A DNA stretch of 64,000 nt from NCBI RefSeq assembly GCF_045037415.1, contig NZ_CP173438.1, one strand, 5' to 3'. Made by a program: the position numbers. The DNA is from Escherichia coli. Lineage in GTDB: Bacteria; Pseudomonadota; Gammaproteobacteria; Enterobacterales; Enterobacteriaceae. Positions 20,001 to 23,000 of this stretch are shown piece after piece (the first letter of the stretch is position 1; each line of letters opens with the position of its first letter).

Positions 20001-23000
20001 AGTTTTTTCTTCAGCTCGCGCAGGCTAACGGTTACGGTTTTACCGTTAACGGTGTGGGTGCCTTCGCCCAGCAGATGCCAGTAGCTGGTCATTTCGATCA
20101 GTTCATCGTAATAGCTGGAGATCCCCTCCGCACGTTTCTGGATCTGCTCGTTGGTAACGATATCGTCAAAGACAACAGACGGATCGTTAACGATATTACG
20201 GATGATATGGGTATAGGAGCGGGAATGAATCGTTTCTGAGAACGCCCAGGTTTCTACCCAGGTTTCCAGTTCCGGGATCGAGATCAGCGGCAGCAGTGCC
20301 ACGTTCGGACTGCGACCCTGAATGGAATCCAGCAGCGTCTGATATTTCAGGTTGCTGATAAAGATGTGTTTTTCGTGTTCAGGCAGTGCCTGGTAATCGA
20401 TACGGTCGCGGGAGACGTCAACTTCTTCCGGACGCCAGAAGAAAGAGAGCTGCTTTTCGATCAGCTTTTCGAAGATGTCATATTTTTGCTGATCGTAGCG
20501 AGCCACGTTGACCGGCTGACCAAAGAACATTGGTTCTTTGAGCTGATCATTTTTCGTCTGTGAAAAGGTGGTATATGCCATGAATGTGTCCTGTGGTTTT
20601 ATTACCCCTCACCCGTCCCCTCTCCCGCAAGGGGAGAGGGGACGGTTTGGTGCAAAGACTGGGGGATTATCAGATCTTACATGCGCCGCTTTCGCAGCCA
20701 TCGTCCTGGATTGACGGCACCAGATCGTCCTGCGCGTCTTCTGCGCCGTCACGGGTGTTCTGATAATACAGCGTTTTGACCCCGAATTTGTAGGCAGTGA
20801 GCAGGTCTTTCAGCAACTGCTGCATCGGCACTTTTCCTGACGGGAAACGTGACGGATCGTAGTTGGTGTTAGCAGAGATCGACTGATCGATAAATTTCTG
20901 CATGATACCCACCAGTTGCAGGTAGCCATCGTTACCCGGCATTTCCCACAACAGCTCATAGGCGTCGTGCAGATGCTCGTAGTCCGGCACCACCTGGCGC
21001 AGAATACCGTCTTTCGACGCTTTGATGCTGACGTAACCGCGCGGCGGTTCAATACCGTTAGTGGCGTTAGAGATCTGCGAAGAAGTCTCGGACGGCATCA
21101 GGGCAGAAAGCGTGGAGTTACGCAGGCCGTGCGTTTTGATTGACTCACGCAGTGCTTCCCAGTCGTAATGCAGCGGCTCATTAGCGATGGCATCCAGATC
21201 TTTCTTATAGGTATCGATCGGCAGGATCCCTTTCGCGTATGTGGTTTCGTTAAACCACGGGCACGCGCCTTGCTCTTTCGCCAGCTCATTAGACGCTTTC
21301 AGCAGGTAATACTGAATGGCTTCGAAGGTTTTATGCGTCAGGTTGTTGGCGCTGCCGTCGGAGTAGCGTTTACCGTGCTTCGCCAGGTAGTAAGCGAAGT
21401 TGATCACACCAATACCCAGCGTACGACGACCCATCGCTCCACGTTTGGCGGCCGGGATCGGGTAATCCTGATAATCCAGCAGCGCGTCGAGTGCGCGTAC
21501 TGCCAGAATTGCCAGCTCTTCCAGTTCATCCAGGCTGTTAATTGCGCCCAGGTTGAAAGCAGACAGCGTACACAGTGCGATTTCACCGTTCTCGTCGTTG
21601 ACGTCGTTCAGCGGTTTGGTCGGCAGGGCGATTTCCAGGCACAGGTTAGACTGGCGCACTGGCGCGATGGCCGGATCAAACGGGCTATGGGTATTGCAGT
21701 GGTCAACGTTCTGAATATAGATACGACCGGTAGACGCACGTTCCTGCATCATCAGCGAGAACAGCTCAACGGCTTTCACACGCTGCTTGCGGATGCTGTC
21801 GTCTTTCTCATATTTGGTATACAGACGTTCAAACTCTTCCTGATCGGCGAAGAACGCGTCGTACAGCCCCGGTACGTCGGACGGGCTGAACAGAGTGATA
21901 TCTTCACCTTTCAGCAGACGGGTATACATCAGTTTGTTGATTTGAACCCCGTAGTCCATATGACGCACGCGGTTGCCTTCCACACCACGGTTGTTTTTCA
22001 ACACCAGCAGGCTTTCCACTTCCAGATGCCACATCGGGTAGAACAGCGTTGCCGCACCGCCGCGCACACCGCCCTGAGAGCAGGATTTCACCGCTGTCTG
22101 GAAATGTTTGTAGAACGGAATACAACCGGTATGGAACGCTTCGCCACCGCGAATCGGGCTACCCAGCGCACGAATACGCCCGGCGTTGATGCCGATCCCG
22201 GCACGCTGGGAAACGTATTTAACAATCGCGCTGGAGGTGGCGTTAATGGAATCCAGGCTGTCGCCGCACTCGATCAGCACGCATGAGCTGAACTGACGAG
22301 TCGGGGTACGCACGCCGGACATGATTGGCGTCGGCAGCGAAATTTTAAATGTGGAAACCGCGTCGTAAAAACGCTTCACGTATTGCAGGCGCGTTTCACG
22401 CGGGTAGTTCGAGAACAGGCACGCGGCAACCAGAATATAAAGGAACTGGGCGCTTTCGTAGATTTCGCCGGTCACGCGGTTCTGTACCAGATATTTGCCT
22501 TCCAGCTGCTTAACGGCAGCATAAGAGAAGGTCATATCACGGTCGTGATCGATAAACGTGTCCATCTGCTTGAACTCTTCTTCCGTGTAGTCTTCCAGCA
22601 GATGATTATCGTATTTGCCCATCTCGACCATTTTCACCACATGGTCGTACAGCGCAGGCGGCTCAAACTGACCGTAGGCTTTTTTACGCAGGTGGAAGAT
22701 CGCCAGACGTGCGGCGAGATACTGATAATCCGGCGCATCACGGGAGATCAGGTCTGCGGCAGCCTTGATAATGGTTTCGTGGATGTCAGAGGTCTTGATA
22801 CCGTCATAAAACTGAATGTGGGAGCGCAGCTCGACCTGGGAAATCGAAACGTTATGCAGTCCTTCTGCCGCCCAATCCAGAACGCGATGGATTTTGTCGA
22901 GATTGATGCGCTCTGTGCTACCGTCGCGCTTTGTCACCAGCAGATTCTGATTCATGTATGTCGTACCTGTTTTTCAATAGCTTCATGCAGACTACCTGTA

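What the first reader, a model, noticed from the sequence alone, without database searches (positions are those of the whole stretch)
20582..20669. Perfect 14-bp GC-rich hairpin in the nrdA-nrdB intercistronic spacer
ccgtcccctctccc-gcaag-gggagaggggacgg sits between the nrdA stop and the nrdB SD (AGGA about 8 nt before the ATG). A stem this stable inside an operon could serve as an RNase processing or 3'-end protection site, or set the nrdA:nrdB ratio. It has no U-tail, so it is unlikely to be a full terminator. My memory of K-12 coordinates suggests a longer spacer there (~230 bp versus 88 bp here); I am not confident in that figure.
Basis: partly seen in the sequence, partly recalled or inferred. 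Interest (0 to 1): 0.35.

Follow-up and report, generated by a model that had tools for sequence, protein, structure and literature searches.

The report
BoxC repeat hairpin between nrdA and nrdB
The perfect hairpin between the two ribonucleotide-reductase genes is a copy of a known, already catalogued E. coli repeat (BoxC, also called PIT or TMECO) that sits where strain K-12 has a string of REP repeats, so it is ordinary.

Summary
The window is E. coli. nrdA, nrdB and yfaE lie on the minus strand, the nrdA-nrdB spacer is 88 nt, and it holds a perfect 14-bp stem with a 5-nt loop and no U-tail. K-12 does have a longer spacer (233 nt), made of REP/BIME repeats.

The hairpin is not a dedicated operon signal. 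It fits the published BoxC/PIT/TMECO consensus exactly. This very sequence at this very site is listed in Holder et al. 2015, Table S8, for strains SE15 and NA114.

About 31% of complete E. coli genomes (1683/5426) carry the BoxC-type spacer. All sampled others carry REP arrays of 146-233 nt. The stem is perfect only in 568 genomes, including ST131 and SE15. There the second loop reads GAC instead of the ancestral TTA. This three-base block change has no one-step neighbours of GAC, which fits a quasipalindrome template-switch mutation.

In the mRNA the element folds at -32.8 kcal/mol. It most likely acts, at most, as a generic barrier to 3'-exonucleases, as REP does. Published tests of this repeat family found no terminator or promoter activity. 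A ratio-setting role is untested, and the within-species polymorphism argues against it. Already known; low interest.

The parts
20670..22955 (-). nrdA (class Ia ribonucleotide reductase alpha subunit), 761 aa; stop codon TGA at 20670-20672
   Evidence: ORF; RefSeq annotation of 100%-identical DNA
20582..20669 (-). nrdA-nrdB intercistronic spacer, 88 nt, BoxC-type allele
   Evidence: the same allele class is in 1683 of 5426 complete E. coli genomes
20661..20665 (-). CCCCC, likely remnant of a deleted second (inverted) TMECO copy
   Evidence: alignment with the inverted TMECO pairs in the same spacer of Pseudocitrobacter and an Enterobacter MAG
20641..20646 (-). ACCGTC, the family-conserved 5' flank of type-A BoxC copies (K-12 copies: ACGGTC); CCGTC forms the outer 5 bp of the stem
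   Evidence: alignment with six K-12 TMECO copies
20605..20640 (-). TMECO/BoxC core: CCCTCTCCC (20632-20640), loop 1 CTTGC (20627-20631), GGGAGAGGG (20618-20626), loop 2 GAC (20615-20617), GGGTGAGGG (20606-20614), G (20605)
   Evidence: pattern matches; consensus from PMC4666352; identical string in its Table S8
20613..20645 (-). perfect 14-bp hairpin with 5-nt loop; RNA dG -32.8 kcal/mol
20615..20617 (-). loop-2 triplet GAC (TTA in most E. coli and in outgroups), the change that makes the stem perfect
20589..20592 (-). nrdB Shine-Dalgarno AGGA, 7 nt before the AUG, outside the hairpin
   Evidence: sequence
19451..20581 (-). nrdB (beta subunit), 376 aa
19197..19451 (-). yfaE-like 84-aa ORF; its start overlaps the last base of the nrdB stop codon
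   Evidence: ORF; the name rests on the K-12 operon nrdA-nrdB-yfaE and was not tested here
20580..20714 (+). antisense ORF starting at the yoaM start codon (overlaps the nrdB ATG); 44 codons here versus 11 in K-12

Best explanation
The hairpin is the core of one BoxC (PIT / TMECO) interspersed repeat lying in the nrdA-nrdB spacer, in the orientation that puts its C-block first in the mRNA. It is one of two allele classes at this site in E. coli; the other is the REP/BIME array of K-12. The E. coli copy appears to be the surviving half of an inverted TMECO pair still present in the same spacer in other Enterobacteriaceae. The stem is perfect and 14 bp long, instead of 9 bp plus a 3-nt mismatch plus 2 bp. 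This is because, in one lineage (ST131, SE15 and relatives), loop 2 changed from TTA to GAC. That three-base block became complementary to the element's own 5' flank GTC. This is the signature of a quasipalindrome template-switch mutation during replication (inferred). In the nrdAB transcript the element folds into a very stable, U-less stem-loop. It stands clear of the terminating ribosome (24 nt past the stop) and of the nrdB ribosome-binding site (31 nt before the AUG). It does not terminate transcription. At most it acts as a generic barrier to 3'-to-5' exonucleases and protects the nrdA segment, as REP stem-loops do (inferred). It is probably a near-neutral passenger rather than a tuned regulator.
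For: Identity:
- Exact fit to the consensus CCCTCNCCC-N3-6-GGGNGAGGG-N3-GGGNGAGGG-G.
- Shares the 5' flank of K-12 type-A copies.
- The identical 36-nt string is listed as a TMECO in SE15 and NA114, and the SE15 coordinates fall between nrdA and nrdB.

Allele classes:
- 1683 of 5426 genomes have the 88-nt spacer.
- K-12, O157, P4 and PMV-1 have 233, 226, 189 and 146-nt REP arrays. Rfam naRNA4, a REP-derived family, scores 76 bits in K-12.

Origin:
- The spacer is homologous to the right half of the inverted pairs in Pseudocitrobacter and an Enterobacter MAG.

GAC change:
- 568 genomes have GAC, 37 have TAA and about 1076 have TTA. No one-step neighbour of GAC exists.
- Outgroups have TTA.
- The haplotype chain C-TTA-C, C-TTA-T, C-GAC-T, T-GAC-T shows the triplet changing as a block.
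- All three changes create Watson-Crick pairs.
- The mechanism is established in E. coli (PMC7202029).

RNA:
- dG is -32.8 kcal/mol versus -22.1 for the TTA allele.
- There is no T-run.
- PIT elements showed no promoter or terminator activity (Hoyne & Maher, as summarised in PMC4666352).
- U-less stem-loops protect E. coli transcripts from PNPase and RNase II (PMC6061677, PMC5927463).
Against: - No transcript data exist here for any strain with this allele, so the exonuclease-barrier step is analogy only.
- Among 91 spacers of 42 nt or more from other Enterobacterales and Pasteurellales, 78 are strongly structured. Several carry a canonical terminator-like hairpin. This could mean that a structure after nrdA is selected, not neutral.
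- The template-switch origin is inferred from the pattern. Three independent substitutions with lost intermediates cannot be strictly excluded. TAA shares the middle A with GAC.
Confidence: 0.65

Rival explanations
1. The stem-loop is a selected post-transcriptional signal, either a decay barrier or a processing site. It sets the nrdA:nrdB mRNA ratio, and enterobacteria keep some such structure after nrdA whatever its sequence.
For: 78 of 91 nrdA-nrdB spacers of 42 nt or more in other taxa fold far better than shuffles. The structures are of unrelated kinds: terminator-like hairpin plus T-run in Kosakonia, Buttiauxella, Cedecea and Enterobacter spp.; REP in Citrobacter, Klebsiella, Kluyvera and E. 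albertii; TMECO in several genera. Every E. coli allele examined carries REP or BoxC. Protective hairpins inside operons are common in E. coli (PMC5927463).
Against: Structures of very different strength coexist within E. coli: the BoxC hairpin alone is -22 or -33 kcal/mol, while the whole REP-array spacers fold at -61 to -124 kcal/mol. Nine taxa have spacers of 12-26 nt with no room for a structure. nrdA-nrdB-yfaE was analysed in the K-12 differential-decay screen but appears in none of its result tables held as text. Repeats accumulate in any permissive transcribed spacer.
Confidence: 0.2
2. The element acts at the DNA level. It is an intrastrand purine-motif triplex (H-DNA) or hairpin that perturbs replication or recombination and makes the locus unstable. 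The RNA hairpin is incidental.
For: TMECO oligonucleotides form stable triplexes in vitro, and TMECO loci are more variable than control intergenic sites (PMC4666352). This locus is indeed hypervariable, with spacer lengths of 88, 146, 189, 226 and 233 nt plus loop variants. The block-2/block-3 pairing scheme fits G.G-C, A.A-T and T.A-T triplets (read from the sequence).
Against: In vivo DMS footprinting did not support stable triplex formation, and duplex forms when the complementary strand is present. In the GAC allele the 14-bp stem consumes loop 2 and two bases of block 3, so hairpin and triplex exclude each other (inference from the sequence). Instability is a side effect, not a function.
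Confidence: 0.1
3. It is a partial transcription terminator or attenuator between nrdA and nrdB.
For: It has a GC-rich 14-bp stem. Other genera have a canonical hairpin plus T-run at the equivalent place.
Against: There is no U-tract and the terminator scan does not call it. PIT/BoxC elements had no terminator activity in reporter tests. nrdB has no obvious promoter of its own in the 31 nt after the stem.
Confidence: 0.03
4. It works on the opposite strand. It ends or stabilises the antisense transcript that encodes YoaM in K-12, or it reshapes that small ORF.
For: K-12 has an antisense TSS inside nrdB and a translated 11-codon yoaM whose ATG overlaps the nrdB ATG. The antisense RNA would form an equally stable hairpin, -33.5 kcal/mol, followed by UUUGGUG. 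In the window the ORF runs 44 codons through the element.
Against: No function is known for YoaM, and its first five codons lie opposite the nrdB start and SD region. The run of three U is weak. There are no data for this strain.
Confidence: 0.05

Closest known systems
BoxC / PIT / TMECO repeats of E. coli (Bergler 1992; Hoyne & Maher 2000 and 2002; Holder et al. 2015, PMC4666352)
   Same: Exact match to the consensus. Same 5' flank as the K-12 type-A copies. Intergenic. This copy is itself listed in the published catalogue for SE15 and NA114.
   Different: Loop 2 is GAC, not TTA (type A) or CCG (type B). This extends the hairpin to 14 bp and should disfavour the triplex fold. It lies inside an operon transcript. 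In the ST131 relative NA114 it is the only TMECO listed.
REP/BIME array in the K-12 nrdA-nrdB spacer
   Same: Same site, same orientation with respect to the operon, stable U-less stem-loops in the mRNA, and copy-number polymorphism between strains.
   Different: Unrelated sequence family. It is 146-233 nt against 88 nt. The first REP starts 10 nt after the nrdA stop; here the stem starts at +25 (24 nt intervene). REP has known protein partners and decay-barrier data, and BoxC has none.
Protective 3' stem-loops inside operons (malE-malF REP; Dar & Sorek 2018)
   Same: A stable hairpin without a U-tract just downstream of the first cistron.
   Different: No 3'-end or half-life data for this element. 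The K-12 nrdAB operon was not among the reported differential-decay pairs.
Quasipalindrome-associated template-switch mutations (Ripley 1982; Lovett laboratory)
   Same: A multi-nucleotide change that makes an imperfect inverted repeat perfect, with no intermediates.
   Different: Seen here as a natural polymorphism, fixed in a clade, and not in a reporter assay. The event itself is inferred.

Membership tests
BoxC / PIT / TMECO | Consensus CCCTCNCCC N3-6 GGGNGAGGG N3 GGGNGAGGG [G/T/C/-] | tested here: met
   against the consensus quoted; 0 matches in 100 shuffles
BoxC / PIT / TMECO | Shared flank of type-A copies (ACGGTC immediately 5' of the C-block, G after block 3) | tested here: met
   the window has ACCGTC (5 of 6) and the trailing G
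BoxC / PIT / TMECO | Loop 2 is TTA (type A) or CCG (type B) | tested here: not met
   GAC in the window; TTA at the same locus in about 1076 genomes and in outgroups. This defines subtypes, not the family: the consensus allows N3
BoxC / PIT / TMECO | Intergenic location | tested here: met
   between nrdA and nrdB
BoxC / PIT / TMECO | Many interspersed copies in the same genome | tested here: inconclusive
   one copy in the 64-kb window. K-12 has 23, but NA114 has only this one and SE15 has two in Table S8. The whole genome of the source strain was not scanned
BoxC / PIT / TMECO | The single strand folds into an intrastrand purine-motif triplex in vitro | not testable with these tools
   blocks 2 and 3 fit the triplet rules by eye; the 14-bp stem should compete with the triplex (inference)
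REP / BIME | REP palindromic unit (GCCGGATG...CCGGCCTAC; Rfam naRNA4 as proxy) | tested here: not met
   no hit in the window spacer, against 76.4 bits in the K-12 spacer
Intrinsic terminator | GC-rich stem followed by a U-tract | tested here: not met
   stem present, no T-run, not called
Protective operon-internal 3' stem-loop | Stable U-less stem-loop just downstream of the stabilised cistron | tested here: met
   -32.8 kcal/mol, 24 nt after the nrdA stop
Protective operon-internal 3' stem-loop | RNA 3' ends at the stem base and a longer half-life of the upstream cistron | not testable with these tools
   no data for this allele; the K-12 operon was analysed but not reported as differential
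Quasipalindrome template-switch mutation | A clustered change that raises arm complementarity, no intermediates, polarity set by an outgroup | tested here: met

The most novel reading that the evidence does not exclude
Enterobacterial nrdAB operons are under selection to keep some strong stem-loop right after nrdA. The structure is supplied in turn by an intrinsic-terminator-like hairpin, by REP arrays or by BoxC. The template-switch that made the stem perfect in the ST131/SE15 lineage measurably raises nrdA mRNA stability and shifts the NrdA:NrdB balance in that clone.
Probability: 0.12. Interest if true: 0.45.

Novelty: already known. Interest (0 to 1): 0.13.

Why it matters
It matters little. 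The result shows that a striking hairpin in an essential operon is a catalogued repeat and one allele of a common polymorphism, so it should not be taken for a new regulatory element. Three small by-products may be useful. First, it is a clean natural example of a three-base quasipalindrome correction that turns a potential triplex motif into a perfect hairpin. Second, the nrdA-nrdB spacer is a site where unrelated structured elements replace one another across Enterobacteriaceae. Third, E. coli offers natural alleles (88-nt GAC, 88-nt TTA, REP arrays of 146-233 nt) for testing whether such elements affect subunit stoichiometry.

Tried and rejected
- Rfam search of 19000-24000 found nothing at the hairpin.
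- The terminator and promoter scan does not call the hairpin.
- The first inverted-repeat search, with max_distance 12, missed the hairpin because of how the distance is defined. It was repeated with 60.
- Papers linking nrdA/nrdB to REP or to 3'-end mapping gave nothing specific. The eLife 3'-end supplement held as text has no nrdA entry.
- Liang, Rudd & Deutscher 2015 (REP close to stop codons) is not held. It is used only as recalled background.
- No paper after 2015 uses the name TMECO for this element.
- An RNA G-quadruplex was considered, because GGGAGAGGGGACGGGUGAGGGG has four G-runs. It was rejected because two of the runs are locked in a -33 kcal/mol stem.
- RNase III cleavage was considered and set aside because 14 bp is short for a canonical substrate (own knowledge).
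- Recent import of the allele from another genus was rejected. The flanking nrdA and nrdB DNA is ordinary E. coli, up to 100% identical to strains with REP alleles (H7).

Full report
**1. Observation**

The window is E. coli. A 501-nt stretch around the finding is 100% identical to strain SK1144, and all but one of 5426 complete genomes match it. The genes are on the minus strand: nrdA 20670-22955, nrdB 19451-20581, and an 84-aa yfaE-like ORF at 19197-19451 (gene names from RefSeq annotation). The spacer 20582-20669 is 88 nt.

The spacer contains a perfect 14-bp inverted repeat with a 5-nt loop, at 20613-20626 and 20632-20645. This is the only perfect hairpin of 14 bp or more (loop 3-8) in the 64 kb. 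In mRNA sense it reads CCGUCCCCUCUCCC CUUGC GGGAGAGGGGACGG, followed by GUGAGGGGUAAUAAAACCACAGGACACAUUC AUG.

The stem begins 24 nt after the nrdA stop and ends 31 nt before the nrdB AUG. The AGGA Shine-Dalgarno lies 7 nt before the AUG and is not in the stem. There is no U-run, and the terminator scan does not call it.

**2. What it is**

On the mRNA-sense strand the element reads CCCTCTCCC-CTTGC-GGGAGAGGG-GAC-GGGTGAGGG-G. This fits the published consensus of the BoxC/PIT/TMECO repeat, CCCTCNCCC-N3-6-GGGNGAGGG-N3-GGGNGAGGG-[G/T/C/-] (Holder et al. 2015, PMC4666352; pattern hits, none in shuffles).

Six TMECO copies fetched from K-12 MG1655 were aligned with it. One of them is the original fabI/envM copy. 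The five type-A copies among them also share a 5' flank, (A)CGGTC; the window has ACCGTC. So the outer part of the stem belongs to the repeat as well.

The identical 36-nt string is listed in Table S8 of that paper as a TMECO in E. coli SE15 (2294215-2294250) and in NA114. The SE15 coordinates lie between nrdA (ends 2294185) and nrdB (starts 2294274). The TTA version is listed for E24377A and SE11. This element at this site is therefore already catalogued, although the paper does not name the genes.

**3. The K-12 comparison**

The spacer is 233 nt in K-12, 226 nt in an O157:H7, 189 nt in strain P4 and 146 nt in PMV-1. These spacers are arrays of REP units (alignment). Rfam naRNA4, a REP-derived family, scores 76.4 bits in K-12 and 72 and 68 bits in E. 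albertii.

The two allele classes share only about 3 nt after the stop codon and the last 16-25 nt before the AUG. The 88-nt allele is present once per genome in 1683 of 5426 complete E. coli genomes. The rest give two-piece matches to the flanks, with spans that imply spacers of 145-233 nt. The flanking coding DNA is ordinary E. coli, up to 100% identical between the window and a strain with a REP allele (H7).

**4. Why the stem is perfect**

The 88-nt alleles differ at only a few sites. Loop 2 is GAC in 568 genomes, TAA in exactly 37 and TTA in about 1076. No genome carries a one-step neighbour of GAC.

The homologous elements in Pseudocitrobacter and an Enterobacter MAG have TTA, as does the type-A consensus. 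TTA is therefore ancestral.

The haplotypes form a simple chain in which the triplet changes as a block: C-TTA-C, C-TTA-T, C-GAC-T, T-GAC-T. Each of the three new bases pairs with the element's own 5' flank GTC. This converts 9 bp plus a 3-nt mismatch plus 2 bp into 14 bp. It lowers the RNA folding energy from -22.1 to -32.8 kcal/mol.

This is the signature of a quasipalindrome template-switch mutation, a mechanism established in E. coli (PMC7202029). The event is inferred, not shown.

The stem now uses loop 2 and two bases of block 3. The hairpin and the intrastrand triplex proposed for this family should therefore exclude each other in this allele (inference).

**5. Comparative picture**

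A scan of species-representative genomes with a degenerate nrdB 5'-end pattern returned 120 loci. One hundred spacers of 400 nt or less could be delimited.
- Nine are only 12-26 nt (Photorhabdus and others).
- Of the other 91, 78 fold at least 2.5 SD better than shuffles.

The structures are of unrelated kinds:
- Short spacers with a canonical hairpin plus T-run occur in Kosakonia, Buttiauxella, Cedecea and several Enterobacter spp.
- REP-type palindromes occur in Citrobacter, Klebsiella, Kluyvera, Pseudescherichia and E. albertii.
- TMECO elements occur in Pluralibacter gergoviae, in Pseudocitrobacter and an Enterobacter MAG (inverted pairs), and, as TMECO-like elements, in Cedecea sulfonylureivorans and 'Enterobacter pulveris'.

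The E. coli 88-nt spacer aligns with the right half of the inverted pairs. Only CCCCC remains of the left copy. This agrees with the remark in PMC4666352 that palindromic TMECO sites tend to decay into simple stem-loops.

**6. How it most likely works**

*Shown.* The sequence is a BoxC/TMECO copy. It lies in the operon transcript. It folds into a very stable, U-less stem-loop, clear of both the terminating ribosome and the nrdB ribosome-binding site.

*From the literature.*
- PIT/BoxC elements had no promoter or terminator activity and did not impede RNA polymerase (Hoyne & Maher, as summarised in PMC4666352).
- Purine-motif triplexes do not form in RNA.
- U-less stem-loops, REP among them, stop PNPase and RNase II and define stable 3' ends in E. 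coli (PMC6061677, PMC5927463).

*Inferred.* In the nrdAB mRNA the element can only act as such a decay barrier for the nrdA segment, functionally interchangeable with the REP array of K-12. I think it is close to neutral, for four reasons:
- Alleles of very different structure coexist in the species.
- Stability varies by 10 kcal/mol within the BoxC alleles.
- Some genera have no room for any structure.
- nrdA-nrdB-yfaE was among the operons analysed for differential decay in K-12, yet it appears in none of the result tables held as text.

The near-universal presence of some structure in longer spacers keeps a selected role alive as the main rival.

**7. DNA-level reading**

GC skew shows that the window's plus strand is the leading strand. 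nrdAB is therefore head-on to replication, and the G-rich TMECO strand is the leading-strand template. TMECO oligonucleotides form triplexes in vitro, and TMECO loci are unusually variable. However, in vivo footprinting did not support stable triplexes. This locus is indeed hypervariable, which fits instability as a side effect rather than a function.

**8. Verdict**

The element is a known repeat already listed at this position. The perfect stem is a lineage-specific variant, best explained by a template-switch mutation. No evidence supports a dedicated regulatory role. Interest is low.

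Noticed in passing
window 20580-20714 (+): K-12 annotates an 11-codon antisense small ORF, yoaM (MSVSCWEFNAG), whose ATG overlaps the nrdB ATG. In K-12 it is translated and has an antisense TSS 174 nt upstream. In the window the same ATG opens a 44-codon ORF ([21 protein letters not shown]...) that runs through the BoxC element into the antisense of nrdA. RefSeq does not annotate it in the strains with the 88-nt allele that were fetched.
   Followed up: partly
window 19152-19219: Weak Rfam naRNA4 (REP-derived) match on both strands, 27 bits and below the gathering score. 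It starts within the last codons of the yfaE-like ORF and extends downstream, so it is probably a REP unit at the end of the operon. A terminator-like hairpin plus T-run lies at 19083-19101 (-).
   Followed up: no
window 62741-62771, 50818-50850, 50955-50986: Perfect 12-13-bp palindromes with REP-like sequence (GCCACATCCGGCA/TGCCGGATGTGGC; CGCATCTGGCATT/AATGCCAGATGCG; GCCAGATAAGAC/GTCTTATCTGGC).
   Followed up: no
window 44521-44561: A 20-nt inverted repeat, 90% complementary, with arms 1 nt apart (GCTATGCAGAAAATTGCGCA / TGTGCAAATTTCTGCATAGC). It looks like an operator and was not examined.
   Followed up: no
L063, L118, L014, L058, L038, L096, L099 (nrdA-nrdB spacers of 51-55 nt): Kosakonia, several Enterobacter spp., Cedecea davisae and others have a canonical intrinsic-terminator-like hairpin plus T-run (for example GGGGCGGGGAAACCCGCCCTTTTTTT) about 20 nt before the nrdB Shine-Dalgarno. 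This implies attenuation or read-through between the two subunit genes in those species.
   Followed up: partly
L013, L019, L060, L062, L070, L095: Photorhabdus species have a nrdA-nrdB spacer of only 12 nt, so no structure is needed there.
   Followed up: no
NZ_AP027545.1 (111,667-bp plasmid record, H20) and one unlisted plasmid record: One E. coli plasmid carries an nrdB homologue about 80% identical to the chromosomal gene. One record labelled as a plasmid holds the 88-nt BoxC-type spacer.
   Followed up: no
Holder et al. 2015, Table S8: In NA114 (ST131) the nrdAB copy is the only TMECO listed, and SE15 has two, against 23 in K-12. In this lineage the 'repeat' is nearly single-copy.
   Followed up: partly
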